In this document: one piece after another, positions 3,010 through 51,214 of the stretch
Numbering within the stretch: the stretch's first letter is position 1
Layout: every line of letters starts with the position of its first letter
Assembly (NCBI RefSeq): GCF_003790525.1
Contig: NZ_CP033635.1
DNA: 64,000 nucleotides
Reading direction: 5' to 3' (one strand)
Source of the DNA: Escherichia coli
Lineage (GTDB): Bacteria > Pseudomonadota > Gammaproteobacteria > Enterobacterales > Enterobacteriaceae
Made by a program: the position numbers and the translations under genes
Notes under the pieces: model-generated
Databases searched by the model: none
What the model saw: only the letters and a program-made list of their open reading frames with translations
What the model was told of the DNA's origin: nothing

Positions 3010-3190
3010 AGTAATGGTGGTGGGGGAAGGATTACTAGCGCTGCGCGCTTCACCCTTCGGATCGTTGCCTGCGGCAACGCTTTCTCGCTGGCGCTCGAGT
3101 CGCACCTTGGTCGAAGCTTCTCATCCCTCCCCGCATGGGCAGAATATTTAATTGCGGATTCGTTTGAGAGTTCACGGACTTTTGAAAAGT
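3010..3190 (-). repeat. tyrT operon distal repeat region (rtT/tpr-like) with partial tRNA 3'-end copy
   Basis: partial copy of the tRNA-Tyr 3' end (atggtggtgggggaagg) at about 3013-3031, downstream of the two full tRNA-Tyr copies; rtT/tpr identity is from memory of K-12 organisation. Confidence 0.4.
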
Positions 3191-3192
3191 GA

Positions 3193-3277
<85 letters not shown>

Positions 3278-3311
3278 AGGGGTAATTCAAATTTTGAGGT
3301 AATGCTTGAGA

Positions 3312-3396
<85 letters not shown>

Positions 3397-24348: not shown

Positions 24349-25407
<1,059 letters not shown>

Positions 25408-37818: not shown

Positions 37819-38298
37819 GATGGCATCCTCAAGTGTTAAGTTAATTAACTCACCACCGAGGCTTTCCACGACCATAAGGGTGGCGAGACGTACAGGGGTG
37901 GAAATACCGGTCACTCGAGAACCCGGCCAGCCTTGCAGCTGCCCTGCACGCCCCACCATTATCTGAATGTGGCTGTGCTTAACGCATAAAAAAACCGCTT
38001 CGGCGCGGTTATGCGCTCGAGTAACTTTCGGGTTTCCACGCCCGGCACCCGTTTTATGAGGTGCAGGTGCACTATAATTCCACCCGTACTGGTTTTCAAT
38101 AGCTACATTCAACATTTTCTCTTACCTTTCATCACCGAAGTGAACTTTGTTGATGCGGTGCCAGGTGCCTCCAGGTGACGTTAACCAGTTAACAATTAAC
38201 GCCGGATACAGAGAATCCACCCATAACACTGTTTTTGGTTTTAACTGTTCCGCGTGCGCTGAGCCGCATTCACCACATCACAAAATTCACTTTAAAAA

Positions 38299-38349
38299 GG
38301 GCGGCAGAGCAGTCACGGAGTAAAACTGATACCGCCACGTCACCAGAAA
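38299..38349 (-). ncRNA. dicF: DicF-like small RNA
   Basis: minus strand reads tttctggtgacgtggcggtatcagttttactccgtgactgctctgccgccc, near-identical to the remembered Qin DicF sequence (2-nt difference), followed by a T run. Confidence 0.6.
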
Positions 38350-47064: not shown

Positions 47065-47430
47065 ATGACTGAACACATAGAATTTGTTTTGCCTTACCCG
47101 CCAACGGTGAATACTTACTGGCGACGTCGTGGCAGCACATATTTTGTATCAAAAGTCGGTGAACGTTATCGCCGGGATGTGGCGTTAATTGTTCGCCAAC
47201 AGCGGTTGAAATTAAACCTGTCCGGAAGGCTGGCAATAAAAATTATTGCAGAGCCACCGGATAAGCGCCGCCGCGACCTGGACAATATCCTGAAGGCACC
47301 ACTGGATGCACTGACGCATGCCGGACTATTCATAGACGACGAGCAGTTTGATGAAATTAATATTGTGCGCGGTCAGCCCGTTCCTGGTGGGCGGCTGGGG
47401 ATAAAAATCACAGAACTGGAGTGCGCATGA
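47065..47430 (+). CDS. rusA: Holliday junction resolvase RusA
   Basis: 121 aa with conserved RRDLDNILKAPLDAL motif. Confidence 0.85.
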   Translation: MTEHIEFVLPYPPTVNTYWRRRGSTYFVSKVGERYRRDVALIVRQQRLKLNLSGRLAIKIIAEPPDKRRRDLDNILKAPLDALTHAGLFIDDEQFDEINIVRGQPVPGGRLGIKITELECA

Positions 47431-48095
47431 ATAACCAGTATTTACAGTTTGTGCGTGAGCAGCTCATTATCGCCACCGCTGATTTGAGTGGGGCAACAAA
47501 AGGTCAGCTTGAAGCCTGGCAGGAGAATGCCATGTTCGATACAGGGCGTTACAGGCGTAAAAAAATCCGGTACCGCGATGAAGTGACTGGAAAAATGATA
47601 ACGCGGGATAATCCACCAATCCCGGGAAAACAATCGCTGGCGAAAGGCTCATCAATTGCCCTGGTCAGCCCGGTTGAGTTTTCGACATCATCATGGCGGC
47701 GGGCGGTTCTGTCTATTGAAGAACATCAGAAAGCCTGGTTGTTGTGGTGTTACAGCGGGAGTATTTGCTGGGAGTATCAGGTCACTATAACCCACTGGGC
47801 ATGGGAAGAGTTTAAGGCCCATTGTGGCAACAGGAAAATTGCAGAGAAAACACGGGAACGCCTGAAAAAATTAATCTGGCTGGCGGCGCAGGCAGTAAAA
47901 GCAGAAATTTTTGGTAAGGAAGGTTACGAATACCAGGATCTGGCATTACTGGCGGGAGTGACAGCCAAAAACTGGTCCAAAACATTTACTGGTCACTGGA
48001 TTGCAATGAAACACATTTTTCACCGGCTGGATAGTGAGGCTTTATTGTTTGTGACGAGAACACGTTCAAAACAAAAGGCGGCATTTTCACAGTAA
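47427..48095 (+). CDS. late-gene antiterminator Q-like protein
   Basis: ATGA overlap with rusA stop; sits before a promoter-terminator pair and the lysis genes, the lambdoid Q position. Confidence 0.6.
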   Translation: MNNQYLQFVREQLIIATADLSGATKGQLEAWQENAMFDTGRYRRKKIRYRDEVTGKMITRDNPPIPGKQSLAKGSSIALVSPVEFSTSSWRRAVLSIEEHQKAWLLWCYSGSICWEYQVTITHWAWEEFKAHCGNRKIAEKTRERLKKLIWLAAQAVKAEIFGKEGYEYQDLALLAGVTAKNWSKTFTGHWIAMKHIFHRLDSEALLFVTRTRSKQKAAFSQ

Positions 48096-48345: not shown

Positions 48346-49059
48346 ATGGATGACAGTACTCTGCTCAGGTACTCTTCACTTTTTGTTGCTTATATGGGAT
48401 GTCTTGGGTGGGGAAGCGCTTACTTTTATGGCTGGGGTACATCCTTTTATTATGGTTTCCCATGGTGGGTGGTTGGGGCTGGTGTCGATGATGTGGCCAG
48501 AAGCCTTTTTTATGCCGTTACAGTCATTGTTATATTCCTGATTGGGTGGGGAGTCGGTGTTGTTTTCTTCCTGGGGATCAAACAAAAAAATAATGTGCAG
48601 GATCTGAGTTTTATCAGACTTTTTCTGGCGATATTGTTGCTTTTTGTTCCGCCTGCTCTGGAGTTTTCAGTAATTCATCGACGCGTTGCGCTAGATGCAT
48701 TGGTTTTATGCGTTATTGCTGCCTTAATAATTACGGTTTTTGTCAGGTCAGGAAGAAGACTTATTTCAGTCAAATGTTTTTCGGAAATGTCTTTTATTCG
48801 TCATCACTGGATTGAGTGTATGATGGTCGGATTCATGATCTATTTCTGGGGATTTTCACTTATTGCCGGTTGGTACAAACCCCAGTTTAAGAAGGAATAT
48901 CAGATGCTCCACTATGATAGTGTCTGGTATTATGTTCTTGCACGCTATGATGACAGGCTGGTGTTGTCGAAATCGTACAGTAATGGGAGTTCTACATTCG
49001 TTATACTTAATAGCGGGCAGATTGATGACTTCGAAGTTAATGTAGTCAGAGTGCGTTAA
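48346..49059 (+). CDS. membrane protein of unknown function (cargo between Q and tRNA genes)
   Basis: 237 aa; Trp/Gly-rich N-terminal TM helices plus hydrophilic C-terminal region; visibly AT-richer than flanking prophage genes. Confidence 0.6.
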   Translation: MDDSTLLRYSSLFVAYMGCLGWGSAYFYGWGTSFYYGFPWWVVGAGVDDVARSLFYAVTVIVIFLIGWGVGVVFFLGIKQKNNVQDLSFIRLFLAILLLFVPPALEFSVIHRRVALDALVLCVIAALIITVFVRSGRRLISVKCFSEMSFIRHHWIECMMVGFMIYFWGFSLIAGWYKPQFKKEYQMLHYDSVWYYVLARYDDRLVLSKSYSNGSSTFVILNSGQIDDFEVNVVRVR

Positions 49060-49181
49060 TATTGCCTGAGTAATTTTCTGTTGACCGCTCAAATTCTTTT
49101 ACCATGTGTAGGCCAATATGCAGGATTTAATCAGGGAAGGGTATTGCAGAGCAAAACTGGCATAAGTATTATTCCGCATAC

Positions 49182-49257
49182 GTCCCTTTAGCTCAGTGGT
49201 GAGAGCGAGCGACTCATAATCGCCAGGTCGCTGGTTCAAATCCAGCAAGGGCCACCA
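49182..49257 (+). tRNA. tRNA with CAU anticodon (Ile2/Met-type, ileZ-like)
   Basis: cloverleaf folds by eye: D stem GCTC/GAGC, anticodon loop CTCATAA, T loop TTCAAAT, CCA encoded; one mismatch at pair 2-71. Confidence 0.8.
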
Positions 49258-49258
49258 A

Positions 49259-49335
49259 CCGCCACTAGCTCATCAGGAGAGAGCATCAGCCTTCTAAGCT
49301 GACTGTGCGGGGTTCGAGTCCCCGGTGGCGGTCCA
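49259..49335 (+). tRNA. tRNA-Arg (UCU)
   Basis: cloverleaf folds by eye: D stem GCTC/GAGC, anticodon stem TCAGC/GCTGA, loop CTTCTAA, T stem CGGGG/CCCCG, CCA encoded. Confidence 0.85.
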
Positions 49336-49336
49336 G

Positions 49337-49410
49337 CGCCGACTTACCTCAGTCGGCAGAACAGTTTAGTTGTAACCATCAGGCCACCACTTCAATTCCG
49401 GTAGTCGGCA
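49337..49410 (+). tRNA. tRNA-like sequence, possibly degenerate third tRNA
   Basis: perfect 7-bp acceptor stem GCCGACT/AGTCGGC and TTCAATT T-loop-like motif, but no canonical D or anticodon arm and no CCA. Confidence 0.25.
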
Positions 49411-49750
49411 CTAAATTTCCAGGCTCGTGCTCACGGCCTGCTTCATATCCGCGCCAGGTCCGTCGCGATTAAACCACAGGGCTTTTCAGGAGGGGCCACA
49501 GAGAGCGTCACACTGACCATTCCCTGTGGCTTGTGCTGAGATCCGGTCAGTGAAATTGTGCAAAGGGAATCTTCGGGAGCTTTGGGCAGAATGTCAGTTA
49601 TTGATGTTGACATCCTCCACACCCTGAAGGTCGGGGTTTTACGGCGCACTGGATAAAATACCTGAACAAACAGCCTCTTCGTGCGGCTTTTTTATAACGA
49701 GATTCTGACTTGCTGCCGTCCGTAATGTCGGATGGCGGAGGTGAGGGACT

Positions 49751-50023
49751 ATGAGAATGGACGAACGATACAGTAACGCTGCATACGGCAGCGCAGGACT
49801 TGTTGCGTTCTTTGCCAGCCTGTCACTGCAGGATTGGGGATTTATTATCGGCGTGGCGTTCAGTATCATTCTTGGTGTTCTTACTTATCGCCTTAACAAA
49901 CGGGAGCAGGAAAAACGAACCCGCATATTGCTCGAAATTCTGGAACGAACTAATGCCGGTAATGTTCCGGCTACGGCACATGCTGTGGCTGAGATTGCGA
50001 AAAAGGCACCAAAAGAAATATGA
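49751..50023 (+). CDS. holin (two-TM, pinholin-like) with dual-start motif
   Basis: 90 aa; MRM dual start, two hydrophobic helices, charged C-terminus; RBS ggaggtgaggg. Confidence 0.7.
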   Translation: MRMDERYSNAAYGSAGLVAFFASLSLQDWGFIIGVAFSIILGVLTYRLNKREQEKRTRILLEILERTNAGNVPATAHAVAEIAKKAPKEI

Positions 50024-50179: not shown

Positions 50180-50557
50180 TTACGGGCCTGTGGGATCAGG
50201 TTGTTTTTTGTCTGATTCCAGAGGGAAGGGACGCTGTTTCGGTTCTCTGAACTTTAGTGATAATGAATTGAAAATCCTCATTTTTTGCTGCCATGCATAA
50301 TGTCTGTCCCATGAACAGGGGGGGCTCAATTCTTCATTCACCCATGCGTTAATATCTTGTTTCAGGTGTTGAAGCATATGGGGTGTTAATGCACTCATAA
50401 TAATATCCAGCGTTTTATGCGAGAGTTTACCGTAAGGGTCTGCAAGGATGCTGCTCGTTGCTTCGTTATTATCCACCATAAGTGGAAGTAGCGCTGATTT
50501 AACTTTTTCTGTCATTAGTTGCAAAAATCTACTGCGCAAATTTTCTTTACTGTTCAT
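50180..50557 (-). CDS. hypothetical protein encoded antisense inside the lysis cassette
   Basis: 125 aa hydrophilic ORF with gagg RBS; lies between 11-bp direct repeats at 50087 and 50607. Confidence 0.45.
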   Translation of the reverse strand: MNSKENLRSRFLQLMTEKVKSALLPLMVDNNEATSSILADPYGKLSHKTLDIIMSALTPHMLQHLKQDINAWVNEELSPPCSWDRHYAWQQKMRIFNSLSLKFREPKQRPFPLESDKKQPDPTGP

Positions 50558-50680: not shown

Positions 50681-51214
50681 ATGAACGCAAAAATCAGATA
50701 CGGCCTGTCGGCTGCCGTTCTGGCGCTGATTGGTGCTGGCGCATCTGCTCCTCAGATACTTGATCAGTTTCTGGACGAAAAAGAGGGTAACCACACAACG
50801 GCATACCGCGATGGTTCTGGCATATGGACCATCTGCCGCGGTGCCACGGTGGTGGATGGAAAACACGTTTTTCCCGGAATGAAGCTGTCGAAGGAAAAAT
50901 GCGCTCAGGTTAATGCCATTGAGCGTGATAAGGCGCTGGCATGGGTGGAGCGCAATATTAAAGTTCCACTGACCGAAGCACAGAAAGCGGGTATTGCGTC
51001 ATTCTGTCCCTATAACATTGGCCCCGGTAAGTGTTTCCCGTCGACGTTTTATAAGCGGCTTAATGCCGGTGATCGAAAAGGCGCCTGCGAGGCGATTCGC
51101 TGGTGGATAAAGGATGGTGGGCGCGATTGCCGCATACGTTCAAATAACTGCTATGGACAGGTTATTCGTCGTGACCAGGAAAGCGCATTAGCCTGTTGGG
51201 GGATAGATCAGTGA
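50681..51214 (+). CDS. SAR-type endolysin (phage lysozyme)
   Basis: 177 aa; N-terminal signal-anchor-release-like segment [15 protein letters not shown] followed by lysozyme-like catalytic region; precedes Rz/Rz1. Confidence 0.8.

What the first reader, a model, noticed from the sequence alone, without database searches (positions are those of the whole stretch)
49337..49410. Third tRNA of the phage cluster looks degenerate
After clean CAU and Arg(UCU) tRNAs, a third element has a perfect 7-bp acceptor stem and a T-loop-like TTCAATT, but I could not fold a D arm or anticodon arm by eye and no CCA is encoded. It is either a decayed tRNA or an unusual tRNA-like structure. The acceptor 5' half also pairs with a nearby second copy of AGTCGGC, forming an alternative hairpin.
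Basis: seen in the sequence. Interest (0 to 1): 0.3.

Follow-up and report, generated by a model that had tools for sequence, protein, structure and literature searches.

The report
Dead copy of a threonine tRNA
The third element of this prophage tRNA cluster is a broken, unannotated copy of the E. coli threonine tRNA thrU (anticodon UGU): an ordinary pseudogene, though its damage is concentrated in the anticodon stem, the part of thrU that the phage P2 nuclease OLD is reported to cut.

Summary
At 49338-49413 (+), two bases after tRNA-Arg(UCU), lies a 76-nt element with a perfect 7-bp acceptor stem, a TTCAATT T-loop, CTA in place of CCA, and a competing 5' hairpin. ARAGORN does not call it. 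The Rfam tRNA model aligns it end to end at 19.8 bits, below the 29-bit threshold.

It is not a decayed argO. It matches E. coli thrU, tRNA-Thr(UGU), at 61/76 positions, against 45/77 for the third tRNA-Arg of phage VT2-Sakai. It also sits where related lambdoid prophages carry an intact Thr(UGU) in an Ile(CAU)-Lys/Arg-Thr(UGU)-Gly(UCC) array.

Fifteen substitutions leave the D stem with 2/4 pairs, the anticodon stem with 2/5 and the T stem with 3/5. G10, G53 and the encoded CCA are lost; the TGT anticodon is kept. The allele occurs in 19 of 5,426 complete E. coli genomes. Milder alleles sharing some of its changes exist and score 63.6, 54.8 and 49.0 bits.

Six of the fifteen changes hit the anticodon stem and erase both CNG motifs, the reported P2-OLD cut sites in tRNA-ThrU. 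So it may be the dead end of an OLD-evading phage tRNA lineage; this is inference.

Verdict: an ordinary pseudogene of low interest.

The parts
49338..49413 (+). tRNA-Thr(UGU) pseudogene, 76 nt, corresponding to thrU-type phage tRNA-Thr. It has 15 substitutions at tRNA positions 10, 17, 20, 24, 27, 28, 30, 32, 39, 42, 43, 47, 53, 57 and 75.
   Evidence: Alignment A1; 61/76 identity to thrU; Rfam tRNA 19.8 bits over the full model; no ARAGORN call.
49338..49344 (+). Acceptor-stem 5' half, GCCGACT, identical to thrU.
49403..49410 (+). Acceptor-stem 3' half, AGTCGGC, plus discriminator A, identical to thrU.
49351..49357 (+). D-loop segment AGTCGGC (AGTAGGT in thrU). It pairs with the acceptor 5' half to form an alternative 7-bp hairpin spanning 49338-49357.
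   Evidence: Inverted repeat I8 and direct repeat D1; -12.2 kcal/mol, z = -5.4; pair probability 0.57 against 0.43 for the acceptor stem.
49371..49373 (+). Retained anticodon TGT within a retained TTGTAA loop core. The flanking stem is reduced to 2/5 pairs, and both CNG motifs (tRNA positions 28-30 and 40-42) are lost.
   Evidence: CNG motif definition from PMC12445682.
49391..49397 (+). T-loop TTCAATT (G57A relative to thrU). The adjacent G53 is changed to C, which breaks the G53-C61 pair.
49411..49413 (+). CTA in place of the encoded CCA (C75T). Homology with intact arrays ends here.
   Evidence: the BLAST alignment to the APEC O1 array ends at window 49411.
49259..49335 (+). Intact tRNA-Arg(UCU), second member of the array. 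It is separated from the pseudogene by the 2-nt spacer 49336-49337.
   Evidence: ARAGORN; Rfam 56.7 bits; cloverleaf is the minimum-energy fold.
49182..49257 (+). tRNA with anticodon CAU, first member of the array. PGAP annotates it as tRNA-Ile. It carries a U2.C71 acceptor-stem mismatch.
   Evidence: ARAGORN; Rfam 64.1 bits; PGAP annotation.

Best explanation
The element is a non-functional pseudogene of a phage-borne tRNA-Thr(UGU).

Shown:
- Lambdoid prophages of E. coli carry a tRNA array between the Q antiterminator gene and the lysis genes. Its commonest form is Ile(CAU)-Lys(UUU) or Arg(UCU)-Thr(UGU)-Gly(UCC).
- In that form the Thr and Gly genes are base-for-base identical to the host genes thrU and glyT.
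- In the window's lineage the Gly gene is absent. Similarity to the intact arrays stops exactly at the 3' end of the Thr gene, where a different lysis module begins.
- The Thr gene has 15 point substitutions. They break three of its four stems, remove G10 and G53 and the encoded CCA, and let the acceptor 5' half fold into a competing hairpin.

Inferred:
- The RNA is probably still co-transcribed with the two intact tRNAs upstream, but it cannot form a cloverleaf or decode.
- Decay probably started from one of the alleles with a weakened anticodon stem that circulate in these arrays. That kind of change is reported to let phage tRNA-Thr(UGU) escape the P2-OLD nuclease, which cuts tRNA-ThrU at CNG motifs in the anticodon stem. 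Decay then continued once the gene was useless or redundant.
For: Identity and position
- 61/76 identity to thrU, against 45/77 to the third tRNA-Arg of VT2-Sakai.
- Same array slot, spacer and anticodon as the intact tRNA-Thr(UGU) of the APEC O1 prophage and phage 606R7.
- Those intact Thr and Gly genes equal host thrU and glyT exactly.

Loss of function
- Rfam score falls from 73.8 bits for the intact gene to 19.8; no ARAGORN call.
- Stems paired: 7/7 acceptor, 2/4 D, 2/5 anticodon, 3/5 T, against 7/7, 4/4, 5/5, 4/5 in thrU.
- Cloverleaf energy is -5.6 kcal/mol against a minimum free energy of -19.2, and the alternative hairpin outcompetes the acceptor stem.
- PGAP does not annotate it.

Decay series
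- The G42U/U43C allele scores 63.6 bits, L211 (G24A + 42U + 43C, three states shared with the window) 54.8, and JLK-2012 49.0.

Rarity and context
- 19 of 5,426 complete E. coli genomes carry it, all at 99% identity or more, plus 2 IMG/VR contigs.
- The adjacent lysis module also holds an annotated pseudogene.

Anticodon-stem bias
- 6 of 15 substitutions fall in the 10 anticodon-stem positions (hypergeometric P = 0.003).
- C28U, G30U and G42U remove both CNG motifs, which PMC12445682 identifies as the P2-OLD cut sites.
Against: - No expression or processing data exist, so loss of function is inferred from structure only.
- All 15 changes lie at positions 10-57 and 75. The acceptor stem and positions 58-74 are untouched (P about 8e-4 if changes were uniform, a post hoc test). 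Plain neutral decay does not predict this; it could reflect selection on that half or gene conversion at the ends.
- The anticodon and the sequence elements I recall as ThrRS identity determinants (G1-C72, C2-G71, G35, U36; from memory) are all retained.
- Fifteen changes on one branch exceed what the upstream ORF's 11.5% four-fold-site divergence would predict. However, the element travels with the downstream module, not the upstream one, so that clock may not apply.
- The link to P2-OLD is an inference from one paper. No allele seen here was tested in it.
Confidence: 0.85

Rival explanations
1. The element is a retained tRNA-like processing signal. It no longer decodes, but its intact acceptor stem and T-loop side still form a substrate that RNase P cuts at 49337/49338. 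That cut would release tRNA-Arg(UCU) with only a 2-nt 3' trailer, so this half of the element stays under selection.
For: The acceptor stem (14 nt) and positions 58-74 carry none of the 15 substitutions (P about 8e-4, post hoc). The spacer to tRNA-Arg is only 2 nt. From general knowledge, not tested here: RNase P separates closely spaced tRNAs in E. coli polycistronic transcripts and accepts acceptor/T-arm minihelices.
Against: - The T stem has lost G53-C61 and keeps only 3 adjacent pairs.
- The acceptor 5' half is predicted to be sequestered in the alternative hairpin in 57% of the ensemble.
- The unchanged ends can equally come from recombination or gene conversion with intact copies. Exchange of the neighbouring tRNA cassette has occurred: Ch1 and the window differ at 8 sites in tRNA 2 and at none in the pseudogene.
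- Other arrays end after tRNA 2 or 3 without such an element.
Confidence: 0.07
2. The element is a still-functional, extremely divergent tRNA-Thr(UGU) that has shed its anticodon-stem CNG motifs to resist P2-OLD-type nucleases, and it replaces the cleaved host tRNA-ThrU during lytic growth.
For: The UGU anticodon, U33, A37, G1-C72 and C2-G71 are retained. Both CNG motifs are lost and the stem is shortened, the two features that PMC12445682 reports as jointly conferring resistance. Substitutions are enriched in the anticodon stem (P = 0.003).
Against: - The anticodon stem is not merely shortened: only 2 non-adjacent pairs remain.
- The D stem keeps 2/4 pairs with G10 lost, G53-C61 is lost, and CCA is not encoded.
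- 19.8 bits against 49-74 bits for every allele that still looks functional.
- The cloverleaf is 13.6 kcal/mol above the minimum-energy fold.
- The allele is rare: 19 of 5,426 genomes.
Confidence: 0.03
3. The element is a decayed copy of argO, the third tRNA-Arg of the Stx-phage ileZ-argN-argO cluster. This is the comparison the first reader proposed.
For: The first two tRNAs of the window are about 86% identical to the first two tRNAs of VT2-Sakai and other Stx2 phages.
Against: The third element is 45/77 identical to the VT2-Sakai third tRNA-Arg but 61/76 to thrU. Its anticodon is TGT, and both acceptor halves equal thrU exactly.
Confidence: 0.01

Closest known systems
E. coli thrU, tRNA-Thr(UGU), first gene of the thrU-tyrU-glyT-thrT-tufB operon
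   Same: 61/76 identical. Same length, same acceptor stem (14/14), same anticodon TGT, and same positions 58-74.
   Different: 15 substitutions break the D, anticodon and T stems and the CCA. The element lies in a prophage tRNA array, not in the host operon. It is not called or annotated as a tRNA.
Lambdoid prophage tRNA array Ile(CAU)-Lys(UUU)/Arg(UCU)-Thr(UGU)-Gly(UCC), for example the E. coli APEC O1 prophage and Escherichia phage vB_EcoM-606R7
   Same: Same position downstream of Q and upstream of the lysis genes. The first tRNA differs at 1 base and the second tRNA uses the same scaffold. The third slot, its spacer and both ends of the third gene are the same.
   Different: In the window the third gene is dead and the fourth (Gly) is absent. 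Similarity ends at the 3' end of the third gene.
Stx-phage tRNA cluster (ileZ-argN-argO of 933W; gene names from memory), checked here on VT2-Sakai
   Same: Same genomic niche between Q and the late genes. The first two tRNAs are related, at about 86% identity.
   Different: The third gene there is a tRNA-Arg unrelated to this element (45/77 identity).
P2-OLD-resistant phage tRNA-Thr(UGU): tRNA-Thr21 of lambdoid phage 21 and tRNA-Thr6 (PMC12445682)
   Same: UGU anticodon on a thrU-like body. The changes sit at the CNG cut motifs (C28U is also reported for tRNA-Thr21) and the anticodon stem is weakened.
   Different: Those tRNAs are functional and keep a 4-bp anticodon stem and intact D and T arms. 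The window element has lost all three arms and the CCA. I could not obtain the tRNA-Thr21 sequence to compare directly.

Membership tests
Canonical bacterial tRNA (Rfam RF00005) | Covariance-model score at or above the gathering score (29 bits), or a call by a tRNA predictor | tested here: not met
   19.8 bits, E = 0.14. ARAGORN gives no call at default or -ps; only at -ps80 does it give a spurious shifted Asn(GTT) call. The intact counterpart scores 73.8 bits.
Canonical bacterial tRNA (Rfam RF00005) | 7-bp acceptor stem with a discriminator base | tested here: met
   7/7 Watson-Crick pairs between 49338-49344 and 49403-49409, with A73 at 49410.
Canonical bacterial tRNA (Rfam RF00005) | D stem of 3-4 pairs including G10, and G18 G19 in the D loop | tested here: not met
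   C10.C25 and C11.A24 are mismatched, leaving 2/4 pairs. G18 and G19 are still present.
Canonical bacterial tRNA (Rfam RF00005) | 5-bp anticodon stem closing a 7-nt loop with U33 | tested here: not met
   Only G27-C43 and U29-A41 can pair (2/5). The loop core U33-UGU-A37 is retained.
Canonical bacterial tRNA (Rfam RF00005) | T stem with the G53-C61 pair and a T54-T55-C56-R57-A58 loop | tested here: not met
   G53C gives C53.C61, leaving 3/5 pairs. The loop TTCAATT is present.
Canonical bacterial tRNA (Rfam RF00005) | Encoded 3' CCA (usual for E. coli tRNA genes; from general knowledge) | tested here: not met
   CTA at 49411-49413, from C75T.
thrU-type tRNA-Thr(UGU) gene lineage (membership by descent) | Significant full-length sequence similarity to thrU | tested here: met
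   81% identity over 74 nt, E = 1.7e-15 pairwise. Every complete E. coli genome's thrU is hit at 81.1%.
thrU-type tRNA-Thr(UGU) gene lineage (membership by descent) | Same slot in the prophage tRNA array, with anticodon TGT | tested here: met
   Alignment A1; array architectures.
thrU-type tRNA-Thr(UGU) gene lineage (membership by descent) | Charged by ThrRS and decodes ACA | not testable with these tools
   The remembered identity elements G1-C72, C2-G71, G35 and U36 are present in the sequence, but the fold is lost.
Stx-phage ileZ-argN-argO cluster | The third gene is a tRNA-Arg homologous to argO | tested here: not met
   45/77 identity to the VT2-Sakai third tRNA-Arg; the anticodon is TGT.
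P2-OLD-evading phage tRNA-Thr(UGU) (PMC12445682) | UGU anticodon, altered CNG motif(s) at positions 28-30 and 40-42, and a shortened anticodon stem | tested here: met
   TGT is kept. CUG becomes UUU and CAG becomes CAU. The stem keeps 2/5 pairs.
P2-OLD-evading phage tRNA-Thr(UGU) (PMC12445682) | An otherwise functional tRNA that replaces the cleaved tRNA-ThrU | tested here: not met
   The D, anticodon and T arms and the CCA are all defective, and the score is 19.8 bits.

The most novel reading that the evidence does not exclude
The element is not inert. It would be the extreme product of an arms race with P2-OLD-type nucleases that cut the anticodon stem, and it would still act during prophage induction in one of two ways: as an uncleavable, ThrRS-chargeable tRNA-like RNA, or as a processing or decoy element whose conserved acceptor and T-loop half is under selection. 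More broadly, the recurrent anticodon-stem alleles of the Thr gene (G42U/U43C in six array contexts) and the cassette-like anticodon arms of the neighbouring gene would mark these lambdoid tRNA arrays as counter-defence islands.
Probability: 0.07. Interest if true: 0.55.

Novelty: new member of a known kind. Interest (0 to 1): 0.17.

Why it matters
On its own it matters little. It is an unannotated tRNA pseudogene in a rare prophage allele (19 of 5,426 complete E. coli genomes).

Its modest value is as one end of a natural allele series of phage-borne tRNA-Thr(UGU). A 2025 study (PMC12445682) showed that P2-OLD kills lambda-infected cells by cutting tRNA-ThrU at CNG motifs in the anticodon stem, and that phage tRNA-Thr(UGU) with altered motifs and a shorter stem rescue the cells. 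The alleles collected here, from thrU-identical through G42U/U43C and L211 to this dead copy, give concrete candidates to test in that assay. They also suggest that lambdoid tRNA arrays turn over under such pressure.

The finding is also a reminder that annotation pipelines silently drop decayed tRNAs.

Tried and rejected
1. A remnant of the fourth tRNA (Gly-UCC) at about 49414-49462. MAFFT alignment A1 suggested a 5'-deleted remnant. BLAST finds no similarity beyond 49411, and a local alignment of 49411-49500 to glyT scores no better than shuffles (1168 and 1375 of 2000 shuffles reach the observed score). Rejected: tRNA-Gly is simply absent.

2. Decayed argO. Rejected by direct alignment.

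3. Quasi-palindrome or template-switch "correction" creating the hairpin (A17C + T20C). Weakened: T20C is a common polymorphism of intact copies (32 loci), so only A17C is private to this allele. Not significant.

4. The exact 20-mer GCCGACTTACCTCAGTCGGC in 14 other IMG/VR contigs (L130 and others). It lies inside a 221-aa ORF with no flanking similarity. Coincidence.

5. Scans for near-relatives of the decayed allele, using its derived states G10C and G53C. They returned only identical copies (L134, L137) and unrelated sequence. Intermediates came from the junction-anchored scan instead.

6. A chimera of two functional tRNAs. Rejected: both halves of the broken D stem lie inside the divergent block.

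7. DGR-type adenine mutagenesis. Only 2 of 15 changes are at A.

8. The isrK-like Rfam hit at 49621-49693 (16 bits, E = 0.38). It is not convincingly alignable to the true isrK at 37988-38064.

9. Literature searches for ileZ/argN/argO and for tRNA pseudogenes in prophages returned nothing useful. The supplement of PMC12445682, which should hold the tRNA-Thr21 sequence, is not held.

Full report
**Context.** The window is E. coli chromosome. It is 100% identical over 48600-50000 to strain LR-31 (NZ_AP027520). The finding lies in the late region of a lambdoid prophage. In window coordinates, transferred from the PGAP annotation of LR-31, the order is:
- Q antiterminator, 47427-48095
- a 714-nt ORF, 48346-49059
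- the tRNA cluster
- a 273-nt ORF, 49751-50023, annotated "phage holin family protein" in some genomes
- an annotated pseudogene, 50246-50515 on the minus strand
- lysozyme, 50681-51214

**Observation.** ARAGORN finds a tRNA with anticodon CAU at 49182-49257 (it labels it Met; PGAP annotates it tRNA-Ile) and tRNA-Arg(UCU) at 49259-49335, and nothing after them. Rfam at gathering threshold agrees, at 64.1 and 56.7 bits.

The third element is real and as described:
- GCCGACT (49338-49344) pairs 7/7 with AGTCGGC (49403-49409), followed by A at 49410.
- TTCAATT lies at 49391-49397.
- CTA stands in place of CCA at 49411-49413.
- A second AGTCGGC(A) at 49351-49358 makes a 7-bp hairpin with the acceptor 5' half.

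A permissive Rfam scan aligns the tRNA model end to end (positions 1-71) over 49338-49410, but at only 19.8 bits, E = 0.14, against a gathering score of 29. ARAGORN calls it only when its threshold is lowered to 80%, and then as a register-shifted Asn(GTT) with a 3-bp anticodon stem. The finding's start coordinate is one base early.

**What it is.** Related prophages hold an intact gene in the same slot. In the E. coli APEC O1 prophage and in phage vB_EcoM-606R7 the array is Ile(CAU)-Lys(UUU)-Thr(UGU)-Gly(UCC). Alignment puts the window element base for base on the tRNA-Thr(UGU).

That intact Thr gene and the following Gly gene are 100% identical to the host genes thrU and glyT of the thrU-tyrU-glyT-thrT-tufB operon. 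The window element is 61/76 identical to thrU, but only 45/77 identical to the third tRNA-Arg of Stx2 phage VT2-Sakai. It is therefore not a decayed argO.

Across the IMG/VR contigs and reference loci holding this Thr gene, the array is modular. The commonest forms are Thr-Gly alone (39), CAU-Lys-Thr-Gly (25) and CAU-Arg-Thr-Gly (13).

**Damage.** The 15 substitutions (9 transitions, 6 transversions) are at tRNA positions 10, 17, 20, 24, 27, 28, 30, 32, 39, 42, 43, 47, 53, 57 and 75.

| Arm | thrU | window element |
|---|---|---|
| Acceptor | 7/7 | 7/7 |
| D | 4/4 | 2/4 (G10C, G24A) |
| Anticodon | 5/5 | 2/5 |
| T | 4/5 | 3/5 (G53C breaks G53-C61) |

These counts use the cloverleaf register.
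- CCA has become CUA.
- The cloverleaf evaluates at -5.6 kcal/mol against a minimum free energy of -19.2. For thrU the values are -21.5 and -22.8.
- The alternative hairpin (-12.2 kcal/mol alone, z = -5.4) holds the acceptor 5' half in 57% of the ensemble. In thrU this pairing has probability 0.
- The intact gene scores 73.8 bits, so the loss is 54 bits.

**Distribution and intermediates.**
- The decayed allele, together with the 349 bp downstream of it, occurs in 19 of 5,426 complete E. coli genomes, all at 99% identity or more. No copy falls between 90% and 99%. It also occurs in 2 IMG/VR contigs.
- It appears behind either an Arg(UCU) or a Lys(UUU) second tRNA, and with or without the 714-nt ORF upstream. 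It is therefore linked to the downstream lysis module.
- Similarity to intact arrays stops at 49411-49413. The apparent tRNA-Gly remnant in the MAFFT alignment is not supported.
- Of 125 arrays anchored on the junction between tRNA 2 and tRNA 3, 80 carry a Thr gene identical to thrU and most others differ by 1-3 bases.
- Several of the window's derived states circulate in copies that are still called tRNA-Thr: T20C (32 loci), G57A, G24A, and above all G42U/U43C.
- G42U/U43C is found in six different array contexts (L054, L041, L070, L069, L211 and phage JLK-2012).
- L211 carries G24A + 42U + 43C, three of the window's fifteen states, followed by an intact Gly.
- Rfam scores form a series: 73.8 (thrU-identical), 63.6 (G42U/U43C), 54.8 (L211), 49.0 (JLK-2012), 19.8 (window).

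**Why the anticodon stem.** Six of the fifteen substitutions fall in the ten anticodon-stem positions (P = 0.003). A 2025 paper (PMC12445682) reports the following:
- Phage tRNA-Thr(UGU), including that of lambdoid phage 21, rescue cells because they combine an altered CNG motif with a shortened anticodon stem.
- thrU itself does not protect.

The recurrent G42U/U43C allele removes the CNG motif at the second cut site and shortens the stem to 3 bp, so it has both features. The window element has C28U, G30U and G42U, which removes both CNG motifs.

My inference, not shown: the Thr gene of these arrays is, at least in some lineages, a counter-defence gene. The window allele would descend from a stem-weakened form that then lost function altogether.

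**Mechanism committed to.** The element is a dead gene (confidence 0.85). It is probably transcribed with the two upstream tRNAs, but it cannot fold, be matured to CCA normally, or decode.

**Unexplained residue.**
- No substitution falls in positions 1-9 or 58-74 (P about 8e-4, post hoc).
- The number of changes exceeds what the upstream ORF's four-fold-site divergence (11/96) would predict for one branch.
- Two explanations are open. One is recombination or gene conversion at tRNA ends, which is plausible because the neighbouring tRNA has clearly been exchanged as a cassette. The other is residual selection on an acceptor/T half that serves RNase P processing of tRNA-Arg, which sits only 2 nt upstream. 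I give the second 0.07.

**Novelty and score.** This is a tRNA pseudogene in a prophage, a new and unannotated member of a known kind. Interest is low (0.17). It rises only slightly because the allele series bears on the recently described P2-OLD / tRNA-ThrU conflict.

Noticed in passing
window 49259-49335; related loci L002, L020, L048, L019, L069, L081, L102, L063 and others: The second tRNA of this array family keeps one scaffold (acceptor, D and T arms) but swaps its anticodon arm like a cassette. Variants include Arg(UCU) with loop CUUCUAA and Lys(UUU) with loop CCUUUAA (C at position 33). There are also many 73-75-nt forms with a conserved 5-bp stem GCAAC/GUUGU and loops of only 5-6 nt (CCAGGU, UAAAU, CACAGU, CACGGU, CUUGGU, AUGAU). 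ARAGORN reports these as tRNA-??? or as odd Phe(AAA)/Ser(UGA). Window and Ch1 differ at 8 sites in this gene, including a paired stem change (G-C to A-U), and at none in the pseudogene next to it.
   Followed up: partly
window 49183 (position 2 of the tRNA with anticodon CAU at 49182-49257): The first tRNA has T instead of G at position 2, giving a U2.C71 mismatch in the acceptor stem that all aligned relatives lack. Its Rfam score is 64.1 bits against 72.5 for the APEC O1 copy.
   Followed up: partly
L054, L070, L041, L069, L211 (IMG/VR); L247 395-470 (phage JLK-2012): A recurrent tRNA-Thr(UGU) allele with G42U/U43C occurs in six different array contexts. It leaves a 3-bp anticodon stem and removes the CNG motif at the second P2-OLD cut site. 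It is a candidate natural P2-OLD-resistant allele by the criteria of PMC12445682. It is rare in complete E. coli genomes, with about 6 near-exact hits.
   Followed up: partly
L002 2241-2394 (APEC O1 prophage) versus L125 701-1060 (host operon): The prophage tRNA-Thr(UGU) and tRNA-Gly(UCC) are 100% identical to host thrU and glyT, but lie 3 nt apart without tyrU between them. E. coli genomes hold about 1,060 thrU-like copies beyond the host gene (6,484 places in 5,420 genomes).
   Followed up: partly
window 49286-49302 (anticodon arm of tRNA-Arg UCU): The window's Arg(UCU) has anticodon stem UCAGC/GCUGA, which carries a paired CNG motif (CAG/CUG) plus A37. That is the P2-OLD substrate signature of PMC12445682. 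The Lys and Arg relatives have UCAAC/GUUGA, with no CNG.
   Followed up: no
L248 406-478 (Escherichia phage SerU-LTIIb): A thrU-type scaffold carries anticodon TCT and is annotated tRNA-Arg. This is an apparent Thr-to-Arg anticodon switch (G35C), and the allele shares T20C and G24A with the window element.
   Followed up: no
window 49607-49659: A piece of about 50 nt in the spacer between the tRNAs and the holin-like ORF recurs at 87-97% identity in 786 E. coli genomes, including 279 places on plasmids. In some records it lies under IS200/IS605 tnpA, terminase or TetR annotations. The rest of 49412-49760 is confined to the 19 genomes with the pseudogene.
   Followed up: no
window 49621-49693: A weak Rfam isrK-like hit (16 bits, E = 0.38) ends in a stem-loop followed by a T run (AGCCTCTTCGTGCGGCTTTTTT), possibly a terminator ahead of the holin-like ORF. 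It is not convincingly alignable to the true isrK in the window. The simple terminator scan did not list it.
   Followed up: partly
window 3015-3396, 25210-25332, 37876-38348: Other Rfam hits at gathering threshold: two tRNA-Tyr(GTA) genes with RtT RNA (probably the host tyrT-tyrV locus), isrC (145 bits), and a C4 antisense RNA / isrK / DicF trio on the minus strand, which I take to be the prophage immunity region.
   Followed up: no
H201-H205 (E. coli mouse strains M6, M9, M11, M15, M19): A thrU-like copy 98.7% identical to the G42U/U43C allele has no annotated feature under it in RefSeq. It may be another tRNA-Thr copy that PGAP does not call.
   Followed up: no
L130 2339-2358 and 13 further IMG/VR loci: The exact 20-mer of the alternative hairpin (GCCGACTTACCTCAGTCGGC) also occurs inside a 221-aa ORF of an unrelated phage family, with no flanking similarity. 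Judged a coincidence.
   Followed up: yes
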